A stretch of DNA of 63,350 nucleotides, filler included, from Reclinomonas americana ATCC 50394 (Eukaryota), in the NCBI GenBank assembly GCA_048213135.1. It is 23 parts of 23 records of this genome, joined end to end, with 100 filler letters (N's around TTAATTAATTAA, not from the genome) between each part and the next. Parts side by side here need not be neighbours in the genome. Positions count along the whole stretch, not along the records: positions 1 to 11,062 come from AFZH01022857.1; 22 more parts are not named here. One strand, given 5' to 3'. The notes under the pieces are model-generated. The model had not been told where the DNA came from. It worked only from the letters and a program-made list of their open reading frames with translations, and made no database searches. Made by a program: the position numbers and the translations under genes. This document shows, piece after piece, positions 1 to 63,350 of the stretch (position 1 is its first letter; the number at the start of each line of letters is the position of its first letter).

Positions 1-524
1 ACATGTACACTTGAAATTTCACATCGTCGAAGCCGTAAAAGTCGAGTTCCACGCGCGCGCGCCCCTCTCTATGTAAAAAGACTAGCACTTCCATGAAAGT
101 TTTGCGCGCGGAGCGCGCCGCTATTTTTTTCTCCCCAGAAGGGCTGCGGTGAATTACAGTTCCGTCGATCAGACAGTTTGACTTGCAATTGTGAACTTCG
201 ACGCTTTGTTTCTCCCCAAAGCCAACTTGTCGACTGTCCTCGGACAGCGGGCGCTTGTAGAACCTGGTTACCTACGTAGCTGCTGCGTCAGGTCCCCCAA
301 CACGTTCATGCTAGGCACAAAAAGGCAGCCGCTTCGAATTTGAACCACGTTTCCTGCCGTTTCTAGGCACTTTTCAGCGAGGCATTAATTGTTTTTCTCG
401 ACCAGCATTATTTCTTTTTGCTTCGGAATGCCGGGCATTATTTCTTTTAAAGTATTAATACACCGACCTACACCCCCCCGTGAGAGAGGGGACACACAAA
501 GGACATCTCTTCTTTCGCGATTCG

Positions 525-1600
525 ATGAGCGACGACAGCGACTCTTCTTCGTCTTCCTCCTCCTCCTCCTCTTCTTCTTCGTCCTCTGATGGAGAGACAT
601 CAGCACAGCTGGCGGCCTTTGCTGCGGCCAATGTGGTGGTGGAGGCCGACGTCTTTCGCGGAGGAGTGAGCGAAAAGAAGAAGAAGAAGAAGAGCAAGGA
701 GGAGAAAAAGGCGAAAGAGGAGGTCGAAGAGGATGCCGAGGCGAAGCAGGAACGCAAGGCGGCGAGGAAGAAAAAGAAGAAGGTGACACACACGAGTGTC
801 GCCAACGCATGCATGCATCTGTCAACAGTGTGTTCTCTCTCTTCTCCGCAGTCCGAGGCAGCGGCCGCTGCTGTGTTGAGCAAGCTGGGCATTCAACTGC
901 GTGAGTTGCGTGACTGGCTGCGGTGGTGGGTGGAGAAGAGGAAGGAGAAGTAACAGGTTGGCGCAGTCCGGCCATCGCGTTGCGACCACTGAATGTCGAC
1001 CGGAACAAGCGCAGTCTGCGTGAGGCCATGGAGGCGGAGGCGACGTTGCGTTTTCCTCCTGTCTCTCTCTCCCTCGCTCTGTTTACGTGCTCGCTCATTG
1101 CGCCGTTCGTGGCAGTGGTGGACCGGGCAAGCGACACGGCTTCAATGTGCACCTGACGCAGAAGCTGCATGCGCGGTTGGATCGCGAGTTGGAGTGGTCA
1201 TCTGCGGATGCCGACGATGAGGAAGATGAGGGTGCGTATGGGGGTGCTGGTGGTCGGAGGCTCTTTTATGACTGATGGTGGGAATGCAGAGGATGGCACT
1301 GCAGCACCGCTAAAACTGCTCCGCTCCAGCGCCGTACCACTGTCGACCGCGGAGGCAGCGTCGGTGAGGTCGCCCTGCAAGAGTGTTGCCTTCTCCCGCT
1401 GCTGAATGTACGCCTGCAGTCTGAGCCACCGAGGAAAAAGCGGAGACGGCTGGCGGGCGTTGTGCAAGAGCCCGAAAGTTCAGAGGATGAGGTGTGTGTA
1501 TGTGTTATGTGCCTGCGATCGTGCTACAGTGACTGACACTGTCGTGTGATACAAGGACACACACATGGCCAAGTGCGGATCTGTGGCCGTCTCGTTTTGA
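525..1600 (+). CDS. Multi-exon eukaryotic gene, CUSTOS (C12orf43)-like low-complexity protein
   Basis: ATG at 525 and several short GT..AG introns (e.g. 783-851). Manual splicing gives a Ser-rich N-terminus, a Lys-rich block, FNVHLTQKLHARLD, LKLLRSS, PPRKKRR and EDEDTHMAKCGSVAVSF* (stop at 1598-1600). This motif order resembles CUSTOS as I recall it. Confidence 0.45.
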
Positions 1601-1677
1601 AGCCTCGACATAATACACTTGATAGACATGAATGTACAAGGTGTTTGTACTCCCTTCCCTCTCTCTTTCTAACCCCC

Positions 1678-4178
1678 TCAGAAGAGCACAGTGTGTCCCG
1701 GTCCGAGGGAGGCGTTGGCCACCACCTCGAGCACGTAGTCGGTGATGCGTGGATCGATGCCGGTGAACACGTTGCTCTCGCGCGCTCGGACCACCAGGGT
1801 TCGTGCGCGCTCTGGCGACACTCGTCGTGCCACGGTGGATCTCGTCTTGCGCACAGCCATGTCCTTGGCCAGACGAATGAGCCACGTTTCGGGAGTCTCT
1901 CCGTCGCGGTCATCCGTCACATGCATCTGGTGGATAGGCTGAGTGCTGGTGCTGCCACCACTTCCTGCTGTCGCCGTCGCCTTGCTGGCCCGCTCGGTGT
2001 CCAGTTCCAGGCTGTCGACAAACTTGAAGAACTCGGCAATCGCCGTGGGTGCATTGGGTGACACCTGAAGAAGCGGAATGGGGGGTGAGTGGCAAAAAGG
2101 CACACGCACACACATATTATGTTTGTGCTCAAGACCTCGTCTTCGACATTCTCCTTCGCGAGTTCCACACGCAGACGCTCTGCAGTGGGAAACTCGTCGA
2201 CTGGAATGGAGGCCACCAGAGGCTCCAACGCATCCCACAGCCGACTCCGATAGCACAAACGCAATGTCTCCACTGCCACGCGTTCTGCACAACCAACCAC
2301 ACTGGTGAGAATCGCGACGTCGACTCACACACCATCGCAGGCAACAAACGCACTTGGTACAACGGCACCGTGTCGGAGCAACAACATGACCGTGCCCACG
2401 TGACCAGTGGCCACAGCGAGCAGGACGGGATGCCGGTCGGGGAACTTGTGGTTGTTGACATCGGCACCCTTCTCCAGCAAGTACCTCGCAATGTGTGTGT
2501 AGCCTCGCATGCACGCATCAGCCAGTGGCGAGTTGCCGTCCAGATCGGCGTCGTTGAGTGGGAAGTCGGGTATGGCGGTGAGAATGCGCCGCACCACATC
2601 CGCGTGGCCACTGATGCAGGCATCTGGGCGGGTTGCACAAACGAGAGAGAGGTCGTGAGTTCAGACGACTCACGCAACAGCAGCACGACGGATCGCCACA
2701 CAACATGAGAGTGCCGAGCGTTCGGCAATAATGTCAGTGGCTCGCAATTCAGCGTGATCACTGCATGGCGATGTATGAGACGATGCGGTGAACAGGTGCA
2801 GCAAAGCAGGCACGACGCGCGCGTACGCACCACGTCTCAATCAGATGATTCACCACGTCCAACTTGCCGGCGCCGCACGCCAACATGAAGCTCGTGCGGC
2901 CGTTCAAATCGCCACTCATCACATTGACGCCGTGCTTTTGCAGCACCTTGAGTATCTGCACCCAGACCGATTACGAGTGAGTGACTCCTCTCTTGGATTA
3001 TCACAGTGGCATCAGCAGCACCTCCAGTGCCCCATTGGCTCCCGCAAAGACCGGAGCGAGCTCTGTTATTCCGCCATCCGCAGTCTTCAGTCCGATCCGT
3101 GACGGCAGTGTGAAGGAGAGGTCGCGCTGCACGAGAAGGTGTGTGCGCAGCAGTTCCTGCAACCGTGGTCCGTCGTCGGCCTCGATCAGCTTGACGAGCT
3201 CGCCGCAGCTCAGGACCGGCTTGGACGGAGGAGGACTGGTGATAATGGTCATCATCGAGCCTGCGACGGACGGTCAGTCAGATGCGCGATTCATGACAGC
3301 CGCACACACACACAGCACGCACACACCTTGTCGCTCTACTTCAGGACTGAGCCGCTCATCGTCGTCCTCCACCTTCGGCGCGGGTGTGGTCGGCGTCGCC
3401 GCACTCCCATGTGGCGATGGCGGCAGTGAGGCTGGCGCGTGCGGCTCTGGCGCCTCAAATCTGTCATCACCACCCCACACGTCATCGTCCGAGAAGTCAT
3501 CGTCGCCGGGCTTGATGTCAATGGCGCCCGTGATGGAGTCATCCTCGGCCAGCGACGACTCATCCATCGACTCATCTTCGTGTTCGATCCTGCTGCCGCT
3601 GTCATCGTCATCCTCCTCCTCATCGTCATCATCCTCATCATCCTCACTGGAGCACAAACAACAGCGTCACACGATCAGTGCACACGTGTGTCCGGTGTGA
3701 CGATGGATCGATCACAACCCAACCGCAACTTGATAATGACCGTGTCGTCGCTGTCGTGGTGCACCGGCGACTTTTGCTCCCTCACGATCGAATCGAGCGT
3801 GGGCAGCGCCAGTGTGGCACTCGCCTGCTCTGGCGCCGCGGCCACAGGTGACAGTGGCGCAGGCTCAACGACAGTCGTCGTCGCCGTCATCACGACCTCC
3901 ACAACCGTCCGAGGCTCCACGTGAGCATCTGTTGCTGCTGCTGTTGCTGCTGTTACTGCTATCACACTCTCTTGCTGAGGCCGTCGTTCTGGTGGCGGTG
4001 GCGGCGGTGGTGGTCGTCTCTGCAGGTACATCAACACCGCTCCCGAGCCGACGGCCACCGCACACACTCCTGTGCAGAGAACGACGAAGCTTCATGAGAA
4101 CACACGCGAAACGCACAGAGAGAGATGAGAGAGCGAACCGGCTGCTGTTAGCCACGGGTGTCGGCGGAACCACGACAT
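1678..4178 (-). CDS. Multi-exon ankyrin-repeat protein with N-terminal signal anchor
   Basis: The spliced start reads MSWFRRHPWLTAAG|VCAVAVGSGAVLMYLQRR, followed by a Pro-rich and acidic linker. Ankyrin repeats are visible (DLNGRTSFMLACGAGKLDVVNHLIE; DLDGNSPLADACMRGYTHIARYLLEKGADVN). The last exon ends at the 1678 stop. Confidence 0.75.
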
Positions 4179-4270
4179 GATGCACACACACACGAAGCGA
4201 GAGGCGCGAAATAAGATGATTGGCGGCTCTCCACTCTCCAAATCCGGCAAATTTGACAGGATATTTGAGG

Positions 4271-5472
4271 ATGAGCGCGCATGAAGCATTCGTCGAGGCC
4301 GGTGCCACGGCTCGTCGCCATGTCTTTCGCTGCGTGTATCGTGGCGGGCATGTGGTAGAAGCATCTGGCGACGATGATGAGGGCGATGCCGGAGCATCGG
4401 CCTCGCGATCGGAGGAGGTCGAGGGAGAAGAGTTTGACCAGTGGGAGTTTGTGGAGTACTCGAAGAAGGAGCACACGGTGGTGTACAAGAACAAGCGATT
4501 GCATTCACCGCTGCACACAGTTGCGTCGTTCGCGGAGAGTGCATGCAACTGATGCAATGTTTTTGTGATGAGGAAATGTGACAAGCAGTGGCGGGCGCAT
4601 GGTGTGGTGCCACACACGGTCGAGGTAGGCGAGAGTGTGCGCAGTGCAGCGAGACGCACGCACCTGTGCTGAGCGCATACACAGGAAGTGTTGCGAGTGT
4701 GCACAGTCGTGGAGACGCGACCGGAGTGGGATCCAATTTGCGTGGCTGGCAGGACCATTGAGCGAGTGGATGGTGTGTGTGGAGAAGTGCAGGAGTGTGC
4801 GCACACGGGCCTGACAGGGTTTGCGCAGAGGAGAACGTCATTGCATGGTGGGCATTCAAGGGTGTTCCGCTTCTCATTTCCGAAAGAGACATGTTGCGTC
4901 GCCTGCGTTCTCTTTCTGTCTCTCTCTTTCTCTGCTGACGAGCACCATCGTCTCCGTCCAGTGTGTTGAATGTGCGCGTGGAACGATTGCCGGATGGGCG
5001 GGCCGTGGTGGCATCGGGCTCTGTCGAACATCCGGAGTTTCGTGAGCTGCTACCGCAACAGAGAGTGCCTTCCGCGGTGCCTTGCTGATGTGCTTGTTGG
5101 TGCAGATGTCCGGAAGACGGCTCACGTGTGCGTGCGCTCTCATGCGTGGCCGGGCTGCTGCTGGTACCGGTGCCTGTCACCGTGCAGCCGGCCGACGTGA
5201 ATCGCGAGTGGATCGACAACTGGCTGCAGGAGACCGGCGAGGCTCACATGATTGACGATCCGTCGCAGCCGCATCACACGCTGTTGACGTACGTGGGCTG
5301 CGTGGATCCCCGCGGCCTCATTCCGAAGTGGGTGCGTGACTGTGACGTAGTACACGCGCGAGTGTGCAATGATCGCTCACTCACGTACTTGCAGGCGGTC
5401 AACTTGGGCGCCAAGAAGGGCACCACGACGGTGGATTCGCTGCGCCGATACTTGGCCGCGCACCGTGAATGA
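4271..5472 (+). CDS. Multi-exon START (StAR-related lipid transfer) domain protein
   Basis: Spliced motifs WEFVEY..VVYK, WRAHGVV, RPEWDPICV and TLLTYVGCVDPRGLIPKW|AVN follow the START-domain pattern. Confidence 0.75.
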
Positions 5473-5573
5473 AAAAGCCACTCTACTCTGTTCATCGCCT
5501 CAACTGCGTCTGTACTGTACAACAACAACAACAACAACAACACGGGAGAAGAAAGACACCGCCATCGCGCTAC

Positions 5574-8500
5574 TCACTGTGCGCCTCGACGCTGTCGCTT
5601 GCGCACCGGCGGTGCAGCAGCGGCAGTGTCCAAGTCTCCTGGCGCCGTGGCGTCCTCCTCCATGACCTCGGCCAGCTCGTCGTCGTCGGCCGTACCACCT
5701 TCCTCCAGTGATACGTCCTCTTCGTCGGCGGTGGAGTCGGCGGTGGAAAAAGTTCGCTTGCGCGCAATCTGTGAGCCTCCAGTTGTTCTTGTCGACTGCT
5801 GCATTGCAGGTGGCGTTGTGCTGGTCGCAATGAGCATCGAATCGGCGCTGTGAAGGGATCACAGAACTCGTAAGCACACAATCGCTTGGCCTCTGCACCG
5901 TAATGATCTCACAACGCACATAAAGTCAATGGAGGCGTTCTCGTCCGAGATCGCCGACAGCGGTGGGCGACTGAACGGCTCGTCGTTGTCTTCGTCTTGC
6001 AGCGATGAGGCCAGCGACGGGCGGTGCGGCACCGGAGCACTGAAGGGAAGCGCTGTCGTCGTCGTGGTGGACGTGGTGGTGGTGGAGGTGGAAGACGTGG
6101 CAGTGGGTGCGTTGGCTGCCCACGATGGCGGTCGTGCGGTGGTTGGACGAGACGGGGCCTTGGTGGTCGCCGGCGGCGGCGGCGGTGGTGATGGCGGCGC
6201 CTGTGCTTCTTGCGGCAGCGTGCGAATGAGGTGCTGCTCGATGCGCGCCAACATGGTGTGGTTTAGCTGGTGCAGATCGCGGTAGCGCCACAGCTGCACG
6301 ATGAGGTACACGACAGAGAGCAGTGCAAACGTCTGCGCGTGAAACGACGGTGAGTTGGTGGCTCGGATCGCGCCGCACTGCACGCACATGCGTACCTTGC
6401 GCAGTGACCAGAGAATAACGCGCAGATCCTGAATGGACTTGGTGCTGTCCAGGTGGTGCTGCTCGGAGACCATGCGCTCCAAGCACAGGCAAAAGAGGAG
6501 GCCGCCAAGCAGCGGTAAGCGAGCCGGACGTGCGCGATCCACGGTGGTCACCAAGAAGGCGACGAGCAGCGCAAAAATGTAGTACAGAATGTCCTTGAAG
6601 TCGAGGAACTCGCCTGCGTGTTGCATGCGTCAAACGCATATCTTGTGTTCACAGTAGCAGCATCATCACTCACCAACAAGGAACGACTGCAGTCCGCTCA
6701 CGTGATCCAGCGACGCCATGATTTGCTGACCGAATTCACCAATGCGCCGCTCCTGCTCGGTGAGCTTGCTGATGGTGTCGGCAGCACTCGTTCGCAGTGA
6801 GCGCAGGTGCTCCGAGGCTGCTGTGAAGCTCGCCTGCTGCTCACTGCGCAGCGTCATCAATTCCTCCTGCGCCTGCGCAATCTGGTGGCGCTGCGCCTCC
6901 AACTGCGCCAGCGTCTCATCGGCGCGCTCACGCAGTCCACTCAGGTGTGTGTGCGTCGACTCAAAGCCCACACGTTGAGCCTCCTGCGGGTGGTTGAGAA
7001 CAAAGGCGTGGACAGTTGACGGGGGAAGAAGACGCACCTTTAGCTTCTTCAGCCGCTTCTGCGCCTCCACGAGATGTGCATCCTGCTGCGCCAGTTGCTC
7101 CAGGGTCACGGTGGCCTTGTCCGACAGCGACGACAAGCGATGCTTGGCGTCTTCGAAGCGCTCCGTTTCCTCCACACGCAAACGCGACAACTGCTCCGCC
7201 GTCACTCGGTGCTGCTCCAGCAGTTCCTCCTTGCTCCGCCCAATGGCCGTCAGGACCTCGGCTGACCGCACATGCAGCTCTCCGATGCCCTCGAGTACGC
7301 GATGCTGACCGTGGTGAATCGTGTCGAGTTGTTCACCGGCTTTGTCAAAGGCGGCCTTTTGTGACACCTGTGGCATTCGCAAAGCAATGAGTCGGCAACG
7401 ACTGTGGCGCAGCTGATGACGGCGGGTACCACCTACCGTGAGGTGCTCGATGCCATCCTGAGCGCGATGCACAGACTGCACAGACACACACATTTTCACG
7501 TTAGCAGGGTGACAAAGAAAGCAGCAGTAAAAGGGCACTGCATGCGCACCGAGAGCACATCATCCTGCTTCTGCAGCAACTCCTGCTGTTTCTCCAACGA
7601 GGTTTTGACCAAGGAGACAGTCTCGGCCTGGCGACTGTGCACATCGCGCACTGTACGCAGCGTGGTGTCCTCGGCTGCCTGCAACAAGTTCTGCTGATAG
7701 GCCAGCGTCTTCTGCTCCGTCAGCAACTTCTGCTGCGTCTTGCGACTCGCGGCCAGCGAGCCAGCAATCTGCGCCGAGTCGTTCTTCAACGCTGTCATGC
7801 GCTGCGTCATCTCCGCATGACGCGCATGCTCCTCAGCACTCAGCTCCTGCCGCGCGCACGGGGGTGAGCATCGATCGCGAAAGCACAGCGCTTTTCACAC
7901 GCGAACCTTGAGGTCACTGCGCAGGGCCGTCTGATGCTGCTGAATGTCGGTGACCACCTCGTGACTGGCATGCCTGTGACACAGCGGCTCAGTGAGTGCT
8001 CGCTCAAGGGAGAGAGAGAGGCAACGGGACGCAACACAGCGCGGTGAATGTCGTTTGTCTCGTGCACAACGCGATCCAACTGGCCCATGGCCGCCTGCGA
8101 CACCTTGTGCAACCCAACGACAATATCTGCGGTGCGCCTACAGTGCGAGTGAGCGGGGGAACGGTTGGAGACACAGAGGAAGAGATGATCCGCACCGCTG
8201 AAAGGCGTCGGCCTGCCAGTGATTGCAGATGATGTCCACGTGCGTGACAAAGTTGGTCATCTGCGTCGAGCCGCCAATCGTCTCTTGACACTGCCTCCAC
8301 GTGCTCTCAATGTCCTCGCACTCGACCGGGATCGGCTGGCGCATGGCGCGCCAGTAACACATCAACAAGCTGTGACGCGCATGAGAAAAAAGAAGCAACT
8401 GACCATTGCGCCAAGCAGCAAGACTCACCCTGCCGCATATCGCAGTCGCTCCTGCCCATCAGCCTCCATCGATGCGCATCCATTCTGCAGGCGCTCAGTG

Positions 8501-8812
8501 ACCCGGCTCACGCACTCTCGATCCTCTGCATCACCGCCTGTCAGTTGGCCAACAACAAAAAATCATCGCCATTCAATGTAACCACCACCACCACCTCTGC
8601 TCACCGTCGGTCTTCGACAACTGATCAACCACCCTCAGCGCAGCCTGCAGTGCCTGTGACGAAGACGACGCCTTTTGCATCCGCACATCCCCGAGAGATC
8701 TTGCTGCTTGTGAAGATTCCTCGCTCGCGCTTGCCGATCGCCCTTCCACGGCGATCAACGAGGAGGCGAGAAGAAGGAAGAGAAGCGCCACAACGGCCAC
8801 GTTGCCGCTCAT
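5574..8812 (-). CDS. Multi-exon GEX1/KAR5/Brambleberry-family nuclear envelope fusion protein
   Basis: Signal peptide MSGNVAVVALLFLLLASSLIAVEG. Six-Cys luminal domain (ECVSRVTERLQNGC..LLMCYW..VECEDI..QCQETI..FVTHVDIICNHWQ). Long coiled coil, then three hydrophobic segments (ILYYIFALLVAFLVTT..RARPARLPLLGGLLFCLCLER..LWRYRD..N) and a basic C-terminal tail RKRQRR. Confidence 0.8.
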
Positions 8813-8970
8813 CTTTTCTCGAGAGGATGAGAGCGAGCCGCTGTGGCCAATCACGGAGATTTGTCCTCATTGATTTCGCGTGTGGTGAGTGGAGATATGA
8901 CCGCGCCTCTCTCCCTCTTTGCGCCTCTCTCACACTCACGTGCATGCGTGCGTGCCTCAGGGTAGAGGAG

Positions 8971-11062
8971 ATGGCGACTGTCGAGAAGCACGAAATCGCC
9001 GCTGATGGCAAGAAGGTGTGTGTGCGACATGTGCGTGTGATCTGCACTTCGACAACTCCTCTCTCTCTCTTCCGCTCCGCCTCCCTCCCACCCTCTCTCT
9101 CATGCACGCACGCGCGTTCCCCTACGCCACCTTGTCGAGCATGTCACTCACTGCATCTTGTGTGTGTGTGTGTGTTTCTTTTTTGTCTTGCATGACCCGA
9201 TTGCCACGTGTCGTCGTCGTGTGACCGAATGCAGTCGTCATCATCCTCCTCGGCGCCCTCATCGCCATCGCTGCCTCCGGTGGTGGTTCCGAAGCGCTCC
9301 GCATGGGCGGGCGTGGGCGTCGGAGTGCTGACAGTGCTGGTCGTCGTCGGCTTTGTGATCTTTGCCACACTGCAACGCAAGTGGGAGCGAGAACACTTGC
9401 TCACATCGCCGCTCGGACGCGCGCTCTTCACCGACAGCCACGCCGATGGTGGAGCACAGGTGAGCGGCGAGGAGGGTGTCATTGAGTGGCGATCTGTGTG
9501 TTGACTGTCGTCGACGTGCACAGACGGTGCGCGACATTTTCGCGGCGGTCGAACCGACGGTGGAGGAGCTGAAGCGGCGCCGGTTTGAGGGTGTGGTGAC
9601 GCCCGACGATGAGGCACGCGATGCGCAAGGGTGGCAGTTGACCGAGTCGGCGATCTTGGCGGGTCGGGCGGCCGCCAAGGACGTGCTTCGTGTGCACGCG
9701 CAGGAGGTCGACAAGTCGCGCGATCCGGACGATGCGGCTGAGAAGTCGCTGACGGCGGGCATGCGCGAGCTGCTGGCACCGACGACGCGAGGAGAGGTGT
9801 CGGATCGTGCGGCGCGTCATGCGCGTCGTGAGTTTGCGCTGACCATCCTGGAGCACGGCCGTGCCCTGAAGGCTGTGCAGTGGATGTGGAAGCAGGCGTA
9901 CGGCGAGCAGCCGAAGGAGGAGGAGAACAAGTCGCCGGAGGGCGCAGTGGCTGGCGAGACCAAGAAGCGTCGTGCCAAGGAGAAGGAGAAGGCCGAGGAG
10001 CAGGTCAAGCCCAATGTTCCGCACCTCGACCGCGTGGGCGACGGATCCGGCATTGGTGTGCGCGAGGTGCGTGTGCCGTCGCTCCGTCTGCCTCTCTCTC
10101 TCTCTCTCTCTCCCTCAATCATTGCATCTGACTTTGTGTGTGCGTGCCGCAGATGGCCGTCTACGCGTGTCTGCGAGGCAGCCGACTGGCGCAGCGCACG
10201 CTGGTCACCGAGTACGAAGAGCTTTTCGTGCTGGGCATGCGTGCCGACCACAACCATTGGCTGGCCGACTGGCAGCGCGAGGTTTGCGTCTCTCGTTCAC
10301 TGCCTTGTGTGTGCAAATCTAGTCACTGAATTGTGTGTGTACGTGCAGTTTGAAGACACGGAGGCCAAGCCGCTGGGCGATCGCATCGATCGCTGCGAGT
10401 TCGAAAACGTGCAAATGTCGTACGTGCACCAGCTGCGTAGCGGTCGCCGCCCACGCGATCCATTCGCTCGCAAGGACCCGAACTTGCCCGACAACGCCCC
10501 CCTGACGGTCACCACGCCAATTCTGGTGGCGGCCAGTGTGGAGGAGCGTCGTACGGCGGCCGTTCGCCTGGAGGTTCGCGAGAACAACCCACTGTACGTG
10601 CGCTTCTGGCTGCTGTGCCAGATGCTGGCCGACTTCCCGAACGGCTCGCGCCCGTGCGACAAGCTCACCTACGAGGAGTTCCGCGACGGCTTCCGCCCCG
10701 GTCGCCCCAACATCCTCAACGTCTACGAGGTCTCCTCTGACATGATGTTGCAGTACGGCGGGCACGGCGGTATGGCCATGGAGCCCTCCAACTTTTTCTA
10801 CATGACGCGCTACATGGGCAACCTGATCAACATTGAGTGCAAGGGTTGCGTTGTCTGCTTTTTCTCCGCTTCCGCCCTCTTTGTCTGTGAGAATGTGTCA
10901 CTCAACTGCCATCGCACAGTGCACGGCATTGGTTGCCAGGGCATGGAGCAGATTGGCGACAATCTCATGCACAACCCGCAACTCGTGTCGGTCATGTTCT
11001 CCAGCACCACCTGCAAGTCGTCGTGGTCCATTGGTCACTTCTGCGAGCGCACCAATAGCGTG
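8971..11062 (+). CDS. Multi-exon type II membrane protein of unknown function (3' truncated at spacer)
   Basis: ATG at 8971 and GT..AG introns. One TM segment (AWAGVGVGVLTVLVVVGFVIFATL), then long codon-biased exons in 9476..11062. Confidence 0.6.
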
Positions 11063-11162
11063 NNNNNNNNNNNNNNNNNNNNNNNNNNNNNNNNNNNNNN
11101 NNNNNNTTAATTAATTAANNNNNNNNNNNNNNNNNNNNNNNNNNNNNNNNNNNNNNNNNNNN
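11063..11162. other. Artificial contig spacer (44N-TTAATTAATTAA-44N), first of 22
   Basis: Identical 100-nt units start at 11063, 15397, 17509, 19993, 22109, 26651, 28447, 29739, 32895, 34253, 36097, 37885, 40264, 41608, 44732, 46892, 49512, 52335, 54903, 56026, 59241 and 61745. Confidence 0.98.
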
Positions 11163-12712
11163 AAAATGAAGCCACGATGTGCGGAAGCGCACCGAACCAA
11201 GCTCCTGCAGTTGCGGCCGCCATGTTCACTCCCTTGGCAATGTATGGCAGAGCAATGATGGATGGCACCGTGAAAATGGACATGAGACCTGCACGGGGGG
11301 GCACAGCATTAGCACACACACGATAGAAGTGATAAGTCGCGAAGGGGGTGGCACAGAGACACACCAATGGGAGTCTCGGCCAGCTCCACGGCATTGACGC
11401 TGGCGGCAAGAGCAATGGATGCTGCTGAGCCACTGCAAAGAGAGCACCAAGAAAGGGGAGAGAGAGAGAGTAAGAGACGGAAGGAAAATACCAGAGGCAG
11501 ATGTGCGTAATCTTTTCTGAATCCACAAACGCACCACACCAAGGCACCGCCGGACATGATAATGGAGCTCTGCGTATCGATGCGTAGCAGTCGACGTCCC
11601 ACCCACGTGCACAAGAGCAGCAACAGCGGCGTGTCGATCCAAGACACCACCAAAGCACGCGGGGCGAGCGGGCCCAGGATCGAAAAGTCAATACTGCAGC
11701 ATCGCAAAAGCCTCATGAGTATCAAACTACATCCTTCCCGCAAAGACAGAACCGCGCCACGCACCACAACAGCACAAGCGACACTGAAATGTAGAGCTCG
11801 GTGAGCATGGCCGTGGTGAGCCACCGGGGTAACGTGCGTTCCTTGGGTATGTTGGCGATGATGCAGCCGAATATGATGGCCCAGATGGAGGAGCCGACAC
11901 TGCCTTGCTTGATTTGAATTTGGGCGGCGAGAATCTGCGACACCATCGCCACTCCCAGCACAACGAGATAGCCGAGTGGGAACAGCGACCATCGCAGCTT
12001 CGAATTGTCAACGGCTGCCAGACCGAGCCACACAAAGAGACCCATCAGCACGAAAAGCACCGGGAGTCCGCGGTTCGACGGCAAGTCAAAGGCGGAGAAC
12101 GGATTCGACTGCCACTTTTTCCACGTCGGCACCTGCACGTCTTGCGACACGCAGATGCAGCAAATCGCAAAGCAAATGAAGCCGATCCACACCGACCACC
12201 ACTCGTCCGCATTCCACCACGTGCCGTGTATCTGTCGCCGTAGCCACGACTTCTTCTTCGCTGGTGGCGGTGCGGCGGCGGCATCGGGCGACTTCAGCAC
12301 AATAACTTGGTCCTTGCTCAGCTGTGTGCGTGTGCGGACGAGTGAATCGGGCGGAGATGAGCGAGAGAATGAGGACGTGGGCCAGTGCACGTACCTGTCT
12401 GTCGTGTTCATCGCCGACAGCAGCAGCGGCGGCCGGCTGCACTCCACCCACAACATCCGCTGCGGCGGCGCCCGCAAGACCACCAGGTGGCATTGGATCT
12501 GACGAGCCCGACACCGACGACGATGAGGAAACGTGGCCGCCACCATCCTCACCGCCCTCTTTTTCATCCTCGTGATCGACCATGGGCTCGGGGGCGTGCG
12601 TGCGGTGGCGCCGACGAGGATCAATCTCACCATCATCATCATCTTCACGTGACGCATGATAATGCTCATCCTGATCACGCACATGAGTCGAATGCGAGCA
12701 TCGAGTGACACA

Positions 12713-12746
<34 letters not shown>

Positions 12747-12801
12747 AAGACGGACAAAAGAAGAGTCACACTGTCGATTACACAATGTTGGTGCCACCCA
12801 T
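11163..12801 (-). CDS. Intron-containing YeiH/putative sulfate exporter family membrane protein (3' truncated; start approximate)
   Basis: Family-type motifs DEWWSVWIGF, WAIIFGCIIAN, TELYISVSLVLL, CGSAASIA and AGAWFG are split by GT..AG introns. Confidence 0.7.
12707..12747. repeat. Compound (CA)n(GA)n microsatellite in an intron
   Basis: Directly visible dinucleotide runs. Confidence 0.85.
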
Positions 12802-13138
12802 GCTTGCTGCTTTGAGTGTGCGTGTGTGCGTGTGCGAGGGAGAGAGCGAGAGAATGCGTGCGCGCGTGCGCGAGAGACAGAAAAGAGAGAGATAGAGAGC
12901 GTCTGTGCGTGCAAGGCTTCGTATTCACCGTGCGGTGGTTACCGAGCTCGTCGCCCTCGCGATGCGACGACATGTGTGCGTGTGTGAGTTGTTATGGAAC
13001 AAGGAGACTCCACGAGGGGCGTGCTCACAGTGTGACAGCAACAAGAATCTCCGGATCTGTCCTGAGCCGCCGGCTCCCACTTTTCGCCCTTCCCACCCGG
13101 CTTGCAACACAATGAAAACAACAACACTACAATCATGA

Positions 13139-15181
13139 CTATGGAGTACCGGCGTGCTTACTTGCCGAGCTGGCTGGCGACAGTGCGCTGTCTGCAGAGG
13201 CCGCTTGCAAGTCCTCATCGTTCGTTTGCTCCTCTAATCTTAGCGGCTTCACCGTGATGACGCTCATGTCGCGGTCCCGGATGCCGCCGGCTGGCCGTCT
13301 GAATGCAGGACCGGTAGCCTCTTCGATCGCGACCTTTTCCCGCGCAAAAACAGCCTCCTGCTCGGCGCTGTACTTTCGAGCGTGCTCGACAGACTCGGGC
13401 AGGCCGACCGTGATCAGCCAGTTGACAACATACAGCACTCCAATCGACTGCAGAAGCGGACGGCACATGCGCACGTGAGCTGGCAGCCTTGAGATAGGAC
13501 AGCAATGGAAAGGAAGAGAGAGTGCGCAACGACAAAGGAGACCCACGACAAGTGGTGACGAGCGAGTACCGAGAACATGTAGCCGCCCAGAATGGGACCA
13601 ACAGCACGCGTCAGTGAACTCAACGCTTGCGCCGCGCCCTGCGTGATGCCCTGCGCCGCACACATGCAAACATACACACAAGAGGATGAATAAAACGAGA
13701 AGGTGACGGTGGCAGCATACATTTGCTCACCTGGCGCGTCGGATCGGTGGCGTTGGAGAGCATGGTTTGTGCAATCGGCAATGCCATCATAAAGCCCACA
13801 GCCGACATGGAGATGGTGAACGAGAGCGCCACCGCTGTGATCCACATGCCACCATACCACTGAGCGTGCCACGGGTAGGCGCTGACGGGGAACATGACAC
13901 TGCTGACGGCCATCAGACACAGGCCAATGCGGTACGACATGCGCAGCTTGAACCGCCGAATGGTGCACTTGAAAAACACGAGCTGGTAGACAAAGGCAAT
14001 GGCGCCGAATGCCATGAAACCCATGCCGATGGCAAACGGAGACAGACCAAGACCGCCCGACTCAAACGACTGAGCGCCGTACAACGTGAATAGCAATATG
14101 ATGTAACCGTTAAGTGCGGCGTTGATGCACTGCTCCGACGGCGACGAGGAATGAGAGGAGATGACAATGCGAGAGGAAGCGACCGACCTCCGACTTACCT
14201 GTGCGATGTTGACACGACGAATTACAGGGTCTTGGATGACTAGGTTGAGTCCTTGTAGAAAGCGTCTGAAAAAAGAGCACTTGGCAGCACGGGCGACTTC
14301 CTCCGGCGTTTGCGGACCGGTCAGCAATTTCTTGTTGGCCGCGATGGCGGCGCGAACAGAGGCAGGATATGTCTTTGCAGTACAAACGAGGGTTTAAGGA
14401 TGTCGCGAACAGCGCGAGGGAGTGCAAGCAGAAACATGGGAATGTCGGAGTACGACTCACCTCGCGGAAAAAGAAAATCAGGATACACACAGGCACCACC
14501 ATAAATATGGCGGCCGTTCCACAAACGGTCAAGTACGGCGATCCAAAGAAACTCCACCGAGCCAGAATGCCACCCGCTGCAACAACCATTGATAAGCAAA
14601 GAACGCTAAATACACAAACAACCGACAGTACACACCTCCCGACGAGACAGCGCGTGAAAGGGCGAATGAGGCACCAATGAGCGAAAACATAAACGCCCGA
14701 TTCTCAGTCGACGTCATGTCAGCGAGTGAAGACTTCGCCACGGTAAGGTTGCCAGTGAAGAGGCCGAGACACACCCGCGTTATCATGGCCATGCCAAATG
14801 TGGTCGACAAGCCAAAGCACAAGGTGGTGGCCGCTGTGACGCAAAGGCCGAGGATAAGTGGCAGCTTGCGACCGTACGTATCCGACAAGTGACTGTGCAC
14901 GCGGGTTCGAAGCACGAGCATGGGGTTGAGTGGACACCGAATGCACACGTACACAAAAACGCACGTACCCGATCATCGACTGCGATAAGAACTGAAAGAC
15001 CGAAGGCGTTCCAACCAGCATGCCCACTTGCCAGCCAACATCGCGGTCGGGTGAGCCAAACACTTCGCGCACCATAGTTGGGAGCATGGGGGAGATGATG
15101 GTGATGGCCATGGCGTCGCTTGCCACCGTCAGATACGTGAGAATGCTGGAGAAATGCAGATGTGGAGGCAATGAGACGAAG

Positions 15182-15239
<58 letters not shown>

Positions 15240-15396
15240 CTACACTCGCGCAATAAACACGCAACGCTGCCAACCAGGAGAACTTGGAGAAGGGCGCGAC
15301 GAGAGGCACACCGTCGGGGCTGACGGTCCTCATTGCATTCTGTCGACTACTGCTCTTGCCTGTCTTGGACACTTCGTCTTCCTCTTCCAGATCCTT
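13139..15396 (-). CDS. Multi-exon MFS transporter (DHA1/ZIFL-like; start at or beyond the contig edge)
   Basis: MFS motif A-like G.LSDTYGRK, followed by ITRVCLGLFTGNLTVAKSSLAD, GGLGLSPFAIG and RAVGPILGG across many exons. Confidence 0.8.
15184..15239. repeat. Compound (CA)n(GA)n microsatellite in an intron
   Basis: Directly visible dinucleotide runs. Confidence 0.85.
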
Positions 15397-15496
15397 NNNN
15401 NNNNNNNNNNNNNNNNNNNNNNNNNNNNNNNNNNNNNNNNTTAATTAATTAANNNNNNNNNNNNNNNNNNNNNNNNNNNNNNNNNNNNNNNNNNNN

Positions 15497-37984: not shown

Positions 37985-38398
37985 GAGCTCGCGCCTGCCG
38001 GCGCCGAGCTCTGGCTCGACGGCGGCCACAATCCCGATGGCGGACGCGTTCTCGCCCAGGCCATGGCCGATCTCGAAGAGAAGAACCCGGCGCCGCTCGT
38101 GATGATCGCGGGTTTGCTCGCGACCAAGGATGCGCGCGCCACGCTCGGCCATTTCAAGGGGCTGGCGCAGGTCCTATTCGCCGTCTCCATCCAGAACCAG
38201 CTCGCGGCCCGTACGGCGGAGGAGGTCGCGACCCTGGCGCGCGAGGCGGGCCTGAAGGCCGAGGTCGCCGGCTCGGTGGAGCAGGCATTGCGGGAGATCG
38301 CGTCGCGGAATTGGCCAGCCCCGCCGCGCATCCTGATCTGCGGCTCGCTCTATCTCGCGGGCGAGGTGCTGGCGGCCAACGGCACGCCGCCGGTGTAG
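37985..38398 (+). CDS. folC: Folylpolyglutamate synthase, C-terminal part
   Basis: LWLDGGHNPDG and ILICGSLYLAGEVL. Confidence 0.88.
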   Translation, partial: ELAPAGAELWLDGGHNPDGGRVLAQAMADLEEKNPAPLVMIAGLLATKDARATLGHFKGLAQVLFAVSIQNQLAARTAEEVATLAREAGLKAEVAGSVEQALREIASRNWPAPPRILICGSLYLAGEVLAANGTPPV

Positions 38399-38818
38399 TC
38401 AGTCCGCTGCAAGCCAGGGATTGAGCGTACCGACGCCGCAGGAGGCGAAATCCTTCGTATTGCGCGTCACCACTGTCAGCGAATGCACGAGCGCGGTCGC
38501 TGCGATCATAGCATCGCGCTCCGGTCGCGGATCAGGGACATGCAGAGCGGCGCAGCGGAGTGCCGCTGCCGTGTCGAACGCCAGGATGCGCCCTTCGAAC
38601 TGCGGCAGGATGCGTTTGTGCAGCCAATTTGCGAAGAGGCGAGCCTGTTGCGGATCGCGGCGCTCCACCCGCAGGACGCCCTGCTCGATCTCGAGGACGG
38701 TCATTGCCGAAATGTAGAGAAGGTCGGCAGGAACGGCTTGCGACCATGCCCAGACAGCTGCATCGGCCCGATGCATGCGCCGTGTCTCCGAGAGCACATT
38801 GGTGTCGAGCAGATACAT
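38399..38818 (-). CDS. vapC: VapC PIN-domain toxin
   Basis: YLLDTNVLSE, DAMIAATA, VVTRNTKDF. Confidence 0.92.
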   Translation of the reverse strand: MYLLDTNVLSETRRMHRADAAVWAWSQAVPADLLYISAMTVLEIEQGVLRVERRDPQQARLFANWLHKRILPQFEGRILAFDTAAALRCAALHVPDPRPERDAMIAATALVHSLTVVTRNTKDFASCGVGTLNPWLAAD

Positions 38819-39075
38819 CAGTCGAAATCGGCCGGCTTGAAGCCCATCCTGTCGCTCATCCGTGGCGGCTCGAACTCGAAATCGGCGCTGTCGGGATCCC
38901 CGACCGCCTCAGCCAGGCTCAAGCCCTTGCCGGTAAGCTTCCGGTACTCCGTAATGGTCAGCAGCACATGCGAAGGCTGACCGCGATCGGTGATGAAGAC
39001 TGGCCCCTGCTGGGCCGCCTTCTTGGCGCGGCCGACATCCTGGTTGAACTCGCGGCTAGACAAGGTCGTTGGCAT
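38818..39075 (-). CDS. Phd/YefM family antitoxin
   Basis: TTLSSREFNQD..GPVFITDRG. Its stop overlaps the vapC start. Confidence 0.88.
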   Translation of the reverse strand: MPTTLSSREFNQDVGRAKKAAQQGPVFITDRGQPSHVLLTITEYRKLTGKGLSLAEAVGDPDSADFEFEPPRMSDRMGFKPADFD

Positions 39076-39099
39076 TGGCACACTCCTGTCACACCACAC

Positions 39100-39121
39100 A
39101 ATGTAGATATGTTGCTACATT
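39100..39121. promoter_or_regulatory. TA autorepression operator palindrome
   Basis: AATGTAG-N8-CTACATT, 25 nt upstream of the antitoxin ATG. Confidence 0.6.
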
Positions 39122-39155
39122 CTATAAGCAGCGCACGAGCGCAGCAAGGAGCCCC

Positions 39156-43979: not shown

Positions 43980-44124
43980 GTCGTTCCGGGACGCCGCGCA
44001 GCGGCGGGCCCGGAACCCAGAACCGATGCCCTTAGTCACGAGGGCTGGGAAAGCGAAGCACTCCGTCCGGGACCGGTATCGGCTCTGGGTTCCGGGCTCG
44101 GCCTTCGGCCGCCCCGGAATGACG
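43980..44124. repeat. CGTC-type palindromic REP/MITE-like element
   Basis: Termini GTCGTTCCGGG...CCCGGAATGAC with nested inverted arms (CCCGGAACCCAGA / TCTGGGTTCCGGG). Confidence 0.75.
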
Positions 44125-44181
44125 GCGCGGTTCCTTCACGGGCCGAGTTAGTCTAGACCGCGGCTTCCGAAGGAAACCCCG

Positions 44182-51438: not shown

Positions 51439-51526
51439 CCGTCATTGCGAGCGCAGCGAAGCAATCCAGTCTCGTAGAGTTCTGCCGCCCTGGATTGCTT
51501 CGTCGCTTTGCTCCTCGCAATGACGG
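51439..51526. repeat. CGTC-type palindromic REP element
   Basis: CCGTCATTGCGAG..GAAGCAATCCAG / CTGGATTGCTTC..CTCGCAATGACGG. Confidence 0.8.
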
Positions 51527-51538
51527 TAGAAGCACTCG

Positions 51539-61844: not shown

Positions 61845-63350
61845 CTACTATGCTGCGCGACGGCAGCAGCGAATGCATGGTGAGCTTGACTTTGGCTGCG
61901 TGTGGGACAACTTGTTTCACTGATCAGATGTGCTGATGCATGCGTGCAGAATCGCGAAAGGCCCGGCGAACACTTCTTTCTGTGCTGGCGAATCTCCGCT
62001 CGTCGATGAACGCAGCACAGCCGAAAGTGCGGCGGCGTGCACGCCACAAGGGACGATGTCGCAAACGGAGGCGCGCGAAACCACCCGACATTCACAGCGG
62101 CGGTGGTGCAGGAGGTAGAGGTGGAGGTGGAGGTGGAGATGACCAGGGCAGTGGAAGTGGAAGTGGAAGTGGAGGTGGAGGTGGCGGCGATGCGGAGCCG
62201 GCGGTGGAGGCCGATGCATCTGACAGCGATGAAATGTGCTTTGCGTTTTTTGTCGACGCTAAAGGCAACGTATCGCGGTGTTTGGTGTGTGGATCGCCGC
62301 CTCACCGGTGCGGCGGTAGCCATCGAGCGTGCGACGTGGGTTCAGCGATCTGGAAAGCACTCACACTCTGTGCGTCGGGCGTCGACTATGGTGTGCGGAG
62401 ATTTGCCACAGTGGCTACCATAGGTATGTTGTTCTCATGAGGCAGGGAGGCAAGAGTGGATGTGGGAGTGTGTGCCAGAGTGGTTTCATGCTCTCTTGCG
62501 TGTGTACGTGTATCAGGATTGACTGCATGAATGACGTCCTTTTTCCTCTCTTCATTCCTCTCATCGTTCACTCCTCTCCTCCCCTTTTCTCATTTCATCT
62601 CTCCTTACTCTCTCTCATCTATTAATACGCTTTCTTTCTCTTTCTGTTCTCTTTCTATCTCTCTCATCTCTTCTTCATCTTTCTCTTCTTGTTGCTAACT
62701 CCGCCGCTCATCACTTTTCTCCTCTCCTACTCTCTTCCCTTGCCTTACCTCCGTTCCGTTTCTTCTCATAGCATCGATCATTTCTTCCCTCTTCTCCTCT
62801 CATCTCCCCTCTTCTTCTTCATGCTGTTCTCTCCTCATCTCCTTTCCCCTTGGCCTGTCCCCTCCCTCCCTCCCCCTCCCCGTTCTCCACCATTTCTCAC
62901 GCCATGTCACGCGCACAGGTGCTGGCGTGAACTGGGCCATCGACGAGCATGGAAAGGACTGGGCGGCACGTGTCATTTTTCCGCTACTCCAGCAAAAGTC
63001 CGTGTTGCAGCGGAAGCTTGCGTCGTATGGTCGTATTGTGGACGCGCGTGCACGCAAGTCGATTGAGCAGCGTCTGGCGAACATCACGCGCCGTTTGCGG
63101 GCCGCTGCCTACAACAACGCAGTCTCCTTTGTGCGCAAGTGAGTGCATGAGCACGGTGTGGTGATTGCAAGCGGTGGTGTCTCATTCACTTGTGCTTATC
63201 AACCACGCAGAGCGGCCATTATCAATGCGGTTCTCATTCTGCCACCATTTTCAAAGGAGATGGCGCACATGATGCAGAAACGACAGTGGGTCGACTATCG
63301 CAAAGAGTGGCAGAACAGATGCATTGGACGCGACACTGTGCTCAAGATGC
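61845..63350 (+). CDS. Intron-containing Fanzor2/IS607-TnpB-like RuvC nuclease (truncated at both ends)
   Basis: Exons 61845-61879, 61950-62423, 62919-63138 and 63211-63350 join via GT..AG introns in one open frame. The product contains SGVDYGVRRFATV (RuvC-I), IDEHGKD, LQRKLAS, a basic helix RLANITRRLR, VLILPPF and RCIGRDTVLKM. Confidence 0.7.
62535..62900 (+). repeat. Polypyrimidine (CT-rich) low-complexity tract within intron 62424-62918
   Basis: Almost entirely C/T on the + strand. Confidence 0.85.

What the first reader, a model, noticed from the sequence alone, without database searches (positions are those of the whole stretch)
5574..8812. GEX1/KAR5/Brambleberry karyogamy gene in a microbial eukaryote
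The spliced product has a signal peptide, a six-cysteine luminal domain, a long coiled coil, three TM segments and a basic tail. This is the established architecture of the GEX1/KAR5/Brambleberry nuclear-membrane-fusion family, which is used as a marker of sexual capacity. It suggests cryptic sex or nuclear fusion in this protist (inference). It is easy to miss because the Cys domain is split over short exons (about 8197-8540).
Basis: partly seen in the sequence, partly recalled or inferred. Interest (0 to 1): 0.7.

Follow-up and report, generated by a model that had tools for sequence, protein, structure and literature searches.

The report
GEX1-type nuclear fusion gene, stray contig
An intact 12-exon eukaryotic gene encodes a membrane protein whose shape and six-cysteine domain match the GEX1/KAR5 nuclear-fusion family, an ordinary widespread family, and it lies on a short eukaryotic contig of unknown origin in an assembly that is otherwise mostly bacterial.

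Summary
On the minus strand, 8812 to 5574, 12 exons joined by 11 GT..AG introns of 54-74 nt give an open 846-codon frame.

The product has:
- an N-terminal hydrophobic signal;
- exactly six cysteines in the part before the membrane segments, aa 78-154, split over exons 2 and 3;
- a stretch of about 450 residues without proline, rich in Leu, Ala, Gln and Glu;
- two strong and one weak membrane segment;
- a 213-residue tail.

The tail is net acidic. Only the part next to the membrane and the last residues are basic.

No profile search could confirm family membership. Pfam Tht1 did not hit any exon piece, and all homology searches came back empty or spurious. A published alignment of nine land-plant GEX1 cysteine-rich domains (PMC7586128 supplement) does support it. 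It shows the same cysteine spacing (x11, x19, x12, then x9/x20 here against x8/x22 in plants), and by eye 9 of 19 conserved non-cysteine columns agree.

I read it as a GEX1-type member (about 0.8).

The claim about sex in "this protist" is weak. The organism is unidentified, and 20 of the window's 23 joined pieces are bacterial. The family is reported in most eukaryotic lineages. Interest is low.

The parts
5574..8812 (-). Whole coding region, ATG 8812 to TGA 5576-5574. Exons: 8812-8605, 8537-8429, 8369-8196, 8137-8036 (alternative end 8038), 7973 (alternative start 7987)-7907, 7846-7550, 7475-7437, 7367-7038, 6983-6674, 6613-6396, 6332-5920, 5847-5574.
   Evidence: open 846-codon frame, GT..AG at all 11 introns, GC3 0.741 in exons against GC 0.559 in introns.
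8741..8812 (-). Signal peptide region, aa 1-24. The hydrophobic core is aa 4-22.
   Evidence: Kyte-Doolittle 19-residue window 2.58. No dedicated signal-peptide predictor was available.
8196..8514 (-). Cysteine-rich domain, C1 codon 8514-8512 to the end of exon 3, aa 78-163, interrupted by intron 2 (8428-8370). C6 codon is 8227-8225.
   Evidence: Cys at aa 78, 90, 110, 123, 133, 154, spacing 11, 19, 12, 9, 20. Compared with the plant GEX1 alignment and Kar5p cysteine positions.
6674..8137 (-). Long helical, coiled-coil-like region, exons 4-9, aa 165-545. A Gly/His-rich break at about aa 349-362 lies near its midpoint.
   Evidence: no proline between aa 121 and 574; composition L59, A46, Q41, E41 of 435 residues; heptad a/d counts are high along the region. 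The hairpin turn is inference.
6531..6593 (-). Membrane segment 1, aa 553-573.
   Evidence: hydropathy peak 1.84. It is followed by a short Arg-rich loop.
6474..6518 (-). Membrane segment 2, aa 578-592. It is weak and short.
   Evidence: hydropathy peak 1.44 over aa 576-594.
6288..6419 (-). Membrane segment 3, aa 611-633, split by intron 10 (6395-6333). Intron 10 is 63 nt, stop-free, and could be retained.
   Evidence: hydropathy peak 1.70; the intron-10 read-through is open, with GC3 0.81.
5577..6287 (-). C-terminal tail, aa 634-846, with intron 11 at 5919-5848. It runs from a basic part next to the membrane, through Pro/Thr/Ser low complexity and an acidic stretch, to an Arg/Lys-rich extreme end.
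   Evidence: K+R 18, D+E 29, P 26, S+T 52. Plant GEX1 tails also end in an Arg-rich stretch after acidic residues (Suppl Fig 5).
8813..8970 (.). Short region (about 158 nt) between this gene's start and a putative neighbour on the plus strand that points the other way, with its ATG at 8971.
   Evidence: sequence read directly. The neighbour's model was not verified.

Best explanation
This is an intact eukaryotic gene for a GEX1-type member of the GEX1/KAR5/Brambleberry family of nuclear-envelope proteins.

Inferred working, by analogy with the family:
- The signal peptide puts the N-terminal 530 residues into the ER and perinuclear lumen.
- There the six-cysteine domain folds as a small disulfide-bonded globule.
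- The long helical region forms a coiled coil, probably an antiparallel hairpin that brings the cysteine domain back towards the membrane.
- Three membrane segments anchor the protein.
- The acidic tail with its Arg/Lys-rich end faces the cytoplasm or nucleoplasm and may serve retention or targeting.

In the family's studied members such a protein is made in gametes or mating cells and is needed for fusion of the nuclear membranes of two nuclei.

Shown here: the gene model, the domain order, the cysteine spacing and the residue matches. Inferred: topology, localisation, timing of expression and function.
For: Gene model:
- Searches give 12 exons, 11 canonical introns, an open 846-codon frame and strong codon periodicity.

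Architecture:
- Searches show the signal-like N-terminus, exactly six cysteines before the first membrane segment, a proline-free stretch of about 450 residues, and 2-3 C-terminal membrane segments.
- The loops fit the positive-inside rule.
- This is the family architecture as described in passages of PMC7586128, PMC4291462 and PMC10609895.

Cysteine spacing:
- Here it is 11, 19, 12, 9, 20.
- Eight of nine land-plant GEX1 have 11, 19, 12, 8, 22. I counted this by eye in Suppl Fig 6A of PMC7586128.
- Kar5p has 11, 22, 13, 10, 24, from the cysteine positions C56 to C141 given in PMC4291462.
- With C1 and C6 fixed, 30 of 1,215,450 random placements of the four inner cysteines give 11, 19, 12. A total of 365 fall within 2 of all five plant spacings.

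Residues:
- Anchored on the cysteines alone, 9 of 19 non-cysteine columns conserved in the nine plant sequences carry a plant residue here, and 3 more are conservative.
- The best block runs from 8 residues before C6 to 8 after it. There 9 of 17 positions equal the Amborella sequence.
- All of this is my by-eye count. The binomial tail for 9 of 19 is 5e-7 to 1.5e-4 for per-column chance 0.06-0.12. This count is post hoc.

Tail:
- An acidic stretch is followed by an Arg-rich end, as in the plant tails.

Context:
- The literature states that the family is so divergent that BLAST and HMMER miss known orthologues (PMC5892394; PMC6263441). The empty searches therefore weigh little.
Against: - No profile or pairwise search tool linked the protein to the family. 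Pfam PF04163 hit 0 of 9 exon pieces even at E up to 10.
- phmmer of exon 3 against 1.84 billion representatives gave only 16 hits. All 16 matched in 3-17 separate stretches. Of the 11 that I scanned, 10 were thrombospondin type 1 repeat proteins.
- Word-index searches with the coil ORF and the membrane ORF gave nothing.
- The ESM Atlas gave no usable hit.
- Seven of the 19 plant-conserved columns do not match. These include the invariant Trp, Ala and Tyr after C1 and the Ser-Gly after C3.
- The residue comparison was made by eye, after seeing the sequence, and against land plants only.
- The second membrane segment is weak.
- There is no evidence on expression or localisation.
Confidence: 0.8

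Rival explanations
1. It is an unrelated secretory-pathway or cell-surface membrane protein with an extracellular or luminal coiled coil. Its six cysteines resemble the GEX1 pattern by chance.
For: No database search recovered any family member. Seven of 19 plant-conserved columns mismatch. Signal peptide plus coiled coil plus C-terminal anchor is not unique to one family (my own knowledge).
Against: The first three spacings are identical to plant GEX1 (30 of 1,215,450 random placements). Matches cluster at the plant-invariant columns. There are no other cysteines in the 530 residues before the membrane segments. Three membrane segments and an acidic tail with an Arg-rich end also occur in plant GEX1.
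Confidence: 0.12
2. It is a fungal-type KAR5/Tht1 orthologue from a GC-rich, intron-rich fungus, not a GEX1-type protein.
For: GC of about 60%, many introns of 54-74 nt and tight gene spacing would fit some basidiomycete yeasts (recalled). The Kar5p spacing of 11, 22, 13, 10, 24 is also close. Kar5 proteins of basidiomycetes are said to be very divergent (PMC5720818).
Against: Pfam Tht1 hit 0 of 9 pieces. The spacing equals the plant type, not the yeast type, in intervals 2 and 3. Three hydrophobic segments fit GEX1, whereas Kar5 and Brambleberry have two. This is a subtype question within the same family.
Confidence: 0.06
3. Exon 3 encodes a thrombospondin type 1 repeat, so the protein is an adhesion-type protein.
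For: phmmer of exon 3 gave 16 hits at E up to 0.001 (best 1.8e-15). Of the 11 scanned with Pfam, 10 are multi-repeat TSP1 proteins.
Against: Each hit is the sum of 3-17 short stretches that all align to query residues 5-46, so the score comes from repetition in the target. Pfam TSP_1 and its relatives did not hit exon 3 even at E up to 10. The CSxxCG core seen in the hits is absent here, and there is only one copy.
Confidence: 0.02

Closest known systems
Land-plant GEX1 (GAMETE EXPRESSED 1), e.g. Arabidopsis At5g55490
   Same: The order of parts is the same: signal peptide, six-Cys CRD, coiled coils, three membrane segments, cytoplasmic tail with an Arg-rich end. The cysteine spacing is identical for the first three intervals. 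Residues are shared at the R-x-A site before C3, at Phe 8 residues before C6, and in the H-x-Q-x-x-A-F stretch after C6 (by eye).
   Different: This protein has 846 aa, against 593 for AtGEX1 (end number). Its helical region is far longer and its tail is long, low-complexity and rich in Pro/Thr/Ser. The last two spacings are 9 and 20, against 8 and 22. It lacks the invariant plant W, A and Y after C1 and the S-G after C3. Overall CRD identity to the best plant sequence is about 24%, by eye.
Saccharomyces cerevisiae Kar5p (Pfam PF04163 Tht1)
   Same: Signal peptide, six conserved cysteines in the N-terminal luminal part, coiled coils and C-terminal membrane anchors. The first spacing, x11, is identical.
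   Different: Kar5p has 504 aa, two membrane segments and almost no tail. Its spacing is 11, 22, 13, 10, 24. Pfam Tht1 does not match any exon piece here.
Zebrafish Brambleberry
   Same: Same family architecture according to passages of PMC10609895 and PMC4291462.
   Different: It has two membrane segments. It acts in karyomere and pronuclear fusion in embryos. I had no sequence for comparison.
Chlamydomonas and Plasmodium GEX1 (Ning et al. 2013)
   Same: These are protist members with a shown role in sexual reproduction at the nuclear envelope. I know this only second-hand.
   Different: Not compared. The paper (PMC3672651) is not held, and no sequence of these proteins reached the session.

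Membership tests
GEX1/KAR5/Brambleberry | N-terminal signal sequence | tested here: met
   hydrophobic core at aa 4-22, Kyte-Doolittle 2.58, followed by small residues. Judged by hydropathy only; no SignalP-type tool was available.
GEX1/KAR5/Brambleberry | Six conserved cysteines in an N-terminal cysteine-rich domain, with the family's spacing | tested here: met
   spacing 11, 19, 12, 9, 20. Plant GEX1 has 11, 19, 12, 8, 22 (by eye) and Kar5p 11, 22, 13, 10, 24.
GEX1/KAR5/Brambleberry | Non-cysteine residues conserved within the CRD | tested here: inconclusive
   By eye: 9 of 19 plant-conserved columns match, 3 are conservative and 7 mismatch. The comparison was with land plants only and is post hoc.
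GEX1/KAR5/Brambleberry | Coiled-coil region after the CRD | tested here: met
   no proline from aa 121 to 574, a Leu/Ala/Gln/Glu-rich composition and high heptad a/d counts. No COILS-type program was available.
GEX1/KAR5/Brambleberry | Two or three C-terminal membrane segments (three in GEX1) | tested here: met
   peaks at aa 553-571 (1.84), 576-594 (1.44, weak) and 611-629 (1.70).
GEX1/KAR5/Brambleberry | Match to a family profile (Ning et al. CRD HMM, PANTHER or InterPro GEX1/Brambleberry) | not testable with these tools
   These profiles are not held. The spliced protein is a joined sequence that could not be handed to the profile tools, and the CRD is split over two frames.
GEX1/KAR5/Brambleberry | Nuclear-envelope localisation, expression in gametes or mating cells, requirement for nuclear fusion | not testable with these tools
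   No RNA or DNA run was listed for the locus, and the organism is unknown.
Pfam PF04163 Tht1 (yeast Kar5/Tht1 family) | HMM match above the 21-bit cut-off | tested here: not met
   0 of 9 exon or ORF pieces matched at E up to 10. The test is weak, because the pieces are 33-256 aa and the CRD is split.
Thrombospondin type 1 repeat | Pfam TSP_1 or TSP1_spondin match and the CSxxCG core | tested here: not met
   One search gave no TSP1 family on exon 3. One search shows the core is absent. The phmmer hits are sums over repeats.

The most novel reading that the evidence does not exclude
The three window pieces with no bacterial match come from a eukaryote with no close sequenced relative that lives with, or hosts, the bacterium making up the rest of the assembly. 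Its intact GEX1-type gene, with plant-type cysteine spacing, an unusually long luminal coil of about 380 residues and a 213-residue tail, would mark nuclear-fusion capacity in an unsampled lineage and a long-armed variant of the family.
Probability: 0.2. Interest if true: 0.4.

Novelty: new member of a known kind. Interest (0 to 1): 0.22.

Why it matters
GEX1/KAR5 is used together with HAP2 as a marker of sexual capacity in protists (passages of PMC6263441, PMC5892394 and bioRxiv 10.1101/2024.07.02.601653). An intact copy says that the source organism probably keeps karyogamy machinery.

Two practical points are more useful:
- The assembly mixes bacterial and eukaryotic contigs.
- This divergent family escaped every generic search here and was recognised only through its cysteine spacing and a printed alignment.

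Tried and rejected
- Pfam on 9 exon or ORF pieces gave no Tht1 and only sub-threshold coiled-coil noise.
- The window's own assembly is not held, so no search for HAP2, SPO11 or DMC1 was possible.
- PF04163 in the nearest genome G001 gave no match. The control genomes are prokaryotes.
- The search for homologous proteins, longer proteins only, found nothing with the coil ORF 6666-7559, the membrane ORF residues 5-150 or the transporter ORF of piece 2. The last was tried for a hint on the organism.
- phmmer of exon 3 (57 aa) against 1.84 billion representatives gave only hits matched in several stretches each; 10 of the 11 scanned are TSP1-repeat proteins. I rejected these as repeat-sum artefacts.
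- The ESM Atlas scored 0.88 for exon 3, to unnamed clusters and below the 0.9 lead level. The membrane region gave no usable hit.
- The PDB sequence search with exon 3 gave nothing below E 1.3.
- The search for related loci with the coil ORF found no relative in metagenome contigs or genome contigs.
- Sequencing runs: none was listed and no RNA holder was listed.
- Rfam and tRNA scans of 1-15396 found nothing.
- Earlier findings of this scan: nothing by place, words or sequence.
- Ning et al. 2013 and Speijer et al. 2015 are not held. In the supplement of PMC9324357 the full-length alignment is a picture without letters.
- No structure or complex was predicted. The CRD and the first coil arm lie in several reading frames, so no informative single-frame piece existed.
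Full report
**What the window is.**
The window is not one stretch of a chromosome. It holds 22 linkers, each of 44 N, the twelve bases TTAATTAATTAA, and 44 N again. These join 23 separate pieces.

The finding lies in the first piece, 1-11062.
- Twenty pieces, from 15497 to 61744, match contigs C9, C72, C33 and C15 of a held prokaryote genome, G001, at 92-100% identity.
- Three pieces have no such match: the first, the second (11163-15396) and the last (61845-63350).
- The window's own assembly is not held.

So the gene sits on a short eukaryote-like contig in a mixed assembly. I cannot tell which partner is the intended organism.

**The gene.**
On the minus strand an ATG at 8812 opens a frame that stays open to the TGA at 5576-5574. 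This requires removing 11 introns, which are 54-74 nt long and all GT..AG. The result is 12 exons and 846 codons.

The model is far beyond chance:
- At this composition, 846 open codons have a probability of about 3e-12.
- GC at codon positions 1, 2 and 3 is 0.649, 0.452 and 0.741. The introns have GC 0.559.
- Most introns carry a CTNAC-like motif shortly before the acceptor.
- Eight introns contain stops or shift the frame, so they must be spliced out. Introns 7, 8 and 10 are multiples of three without stops and could be retained without breaking the protein.

Intron 4 has two in-frame solutions that differ by four residues.

The gene is tightly packed. Its stop lies 101 nt from the stop of a plus-strand neighbour that runs towards it and ends at 5472. 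Its start lies about 158 nt from a putative neighbour that points the other way, with its ATG at 8971.

**The product**.
- Residues 4-22 are strongly hydrophobic, consistent with a signal peptide.
- The 530 residues that follow contain exactly six cysteines, at 78, 90, 110, 123, 133 and 154.
- From residue 121 to 574 there is no proline, and the composition is dominated by Leu, Ala, Gln and Glu. This indicates a long helical, coiled-coil-like rod. A Gly/His-rich break lies near its middle.
- Three hydrophobic segments follow, at 553-571, 576-594 (weak) and 611-629. The loop after the first and the stretch after the third are Arg-rich. This fits a topology with a luminal N-terminus and a cytoplasmic or nucleoplasmic tail.
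- The tail (634-846) has K+R 18 and D+E 29. It is rich in Pro, Thr and Ser and ends in a short Arg/Lys cluster. "Basic tail" is therefore only partly right.

**Searches that found nothing.**
- Pfam on nine exon or ORF pieces gave no hit to PF04163 (Tht1, the Kar5 family), even at E up to 10.
- Word-index searches for longer proteins with the coil ORF and the membrane ORF found nothing.
- phmmer of exon 3 (57 aa) against 1.84 billion representatives listed 16 proteins at E up to 0.001. Each matched through 3-17 short stretches. Of the 11 I scanned with Pfam, 10 are thrombospondin type 1 repeat proteins and one has no family. Pfam's own TSP1 models do not hit exon 3, so these hits are sums over repeats, not homology.
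- The ESM Atlas, the PDB sequence search, metagenome and genome contig scans, and the sequencing-run index gave nothing usable.

These blanks weigh little. Passages of PMC5892394 and PMC6263441 state that GEX1 orthologues can share as little as 20% identity, that BLAST and HMMER miss known orthologues, and that a special profile is needed.

**Evidence that links it to the family.**
Passages of PMC7586128, PMC4291462, PMC10609895 and PMC9324357 define the family as follows:
- a signal sequence;
- an N-terminal cysteine-rich domain with six conserved cysteines;
- coiled coils;
- two (Kar5, Brambleberry) or three (GEX1) C-terminal membrane segments.

The cysteine domain is the only part conserved in sequence.

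PMC4291462 gives the Kar5p cysteines as C56, C68, C91, C105, C116 and C141. That is a spacing of 11, 22, 13, 10, 24.

The supplement of PMC7586128, which I read whole, prints the domain of nine land-plant GEX1 proteins. By my count eight have spacing 11, 19, 12, 8, 22, and the Physcomitrium sequence has 11 in the third interval.

The protein here has 11, 19, 12, 9, 20. With C1 and C6 fixed, 30 of 1,215,450 placements of the four inner cysteines give 11, 19, 12. A total of 365 fall within two residues of all five plant values.

I then anchored the comparison on the cysteines alone and looked at 19 non-cysteine columns that are conserved among the nine plant sequences.
- Nine carry a plant residue here:
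  - Leu 8 residues after C1;
  - Arg and Ala 12 and 14 residues after C2;
  - Leu 17 residues after C2;
  - Ile 4 residues after C5;
  - Phe 8 residues before C6;
  - Gln, Ala and Phe 4, 7 and 8 residues after C6.
- Three more are conservative changes.
- Seven differ, among them the invariant Trp, Ala and Tyr after C1.

In the block from 8 residues before C6 to 8 after it, 9 of 17 residues equal the Amborella sequence.

These counts are by eye and were made after seeing the sequence. The binomial tail (5e-7 to 1.5e-4) should be read with that in mind.

The tail also parallels the plant proteins, with acidic residues followed by an Arg-rich end. The authors of PMC7586128 suggest this may act as an RXR-type ER retention signal.

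**Reading.**
I conclude, at about 0.8, that this is a GEX1-type member of the GEX1/KAR5/Brambleberry family. The supposed working is inferred from the family:
- The N-terminal part is luminal.
- The CRD is disulfide-bonded.
- The helical rod probably folds back as a hairpin, as in the AlphaFold models described in PMC9324357.
- The protein is anchored by three segments in the nuclear envelope.
- It acts when two nuclei fuse.

Nothing on localisation, expression or function was or could be tested here.

The rivals are a chance resemblance in an unrelated secretory coiled-coil protein (0.12), a fungal KAR5-type member (0.06, a subtype question) and a TSP1-type protein (0.02).

**Novelty and interest.**
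Passages of PMC6263441 and PMC5892394, citing Speijer et al. 2015 (which I could not read), report the family in most eukaryotic lineages. It is routinely inventoried as a marker of sex.

A further member in an unidentified eukaryote is therefore expected. The inference of cryptic sex cannot be attached to any organism. The companion genes could not be sought, because the assembly is not held.

The points worth keeping are the mixed nature of the assembly and the fact that only cysteine spacing and a printed alignment recognised the gene.

Noticed in passing
window 11063-11162, 15397-15496 and 20 further sites (list): The window is 23 contig-like pieces joined by artificial linkers, each N44-TTAATTAATTAA-N44. 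Twenty pieces (15497-61744) match the prokaryote genome G001 at 92-100%, in the same order as its contigs C9, C72, C33 and C15. Pieces 1, 2 and 23 have no such match.
   Followed up: yes
window 11163-15396, minus strand: The second unmatched piece also looks eukaryotic, with split ORFs and GT and CT microsatellites. The ORF 14529-14972 matches Pfam MFS_1 (E 1.1e-10), so this is probably an intron-bearing major-facilitator transporter gene. A search for longer homologues of ORF 13620-14393 found nothing.
   Followed up: partly
window 61845-63350: The last piece has no strong match in G001. It is lower in GC, has Ser/Thr and Glu/Val microsatellite-like ORFs and shows no clear gene. It may be a third eukaryotic fragment.
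   Followed up: partly
window about 4800-5472, plus strand: A neighbouring gene runs towards this one and ends at the TGA at 5470-5472, 101 nt from this gene's stop. Its last exons recall the C-terminal end of START lipid-transfer domains. That resemblance is recalled only; Pfam gave no hit on ORF 5089-5472.
   Followed up: partly
window 8971-11062, plus strand: A putative neighbour points the other way and starts about 158 nt upstream of this gene. It has a short first exon, then a single-pass membrane stretch (about 9300-9370) and a long open frame at 9464-11062 that runs into the linker. Pfam gave no hit.
   Followed up: partly
window 38395-39146: Inside a bacterial piece, about 752 nt have no match in G001. 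The flanks map to G001 C72 positions only 6 nt apart (283961-284370 and 284377-285493). This looks like an insertion specific to this strain.
   Followed up: no
window 43980-44134 and 51439-51527: Two short bacterial stretches match many places in G001. The first, about 150 nt, matches at 70-77% with more than 20 hits. The second, about 90 nt, matches at 80-94% with more than 25 hits on both strands. They look like dispersed short repeats of the bacterium.
   Followed up: no
window 8243-8341, minus strand (exon 3, residues 10-42): A local likeness to the thrombospondin type 1 repeat core (P-V-D/E-C ... W ... C ... G-G ... Q) is enough to pull multi-repeat TSP1 proteins to E 1.8e-15 in phmmer through summed stretches. 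This is a trap for automatic annotation.
   Followed up: yes
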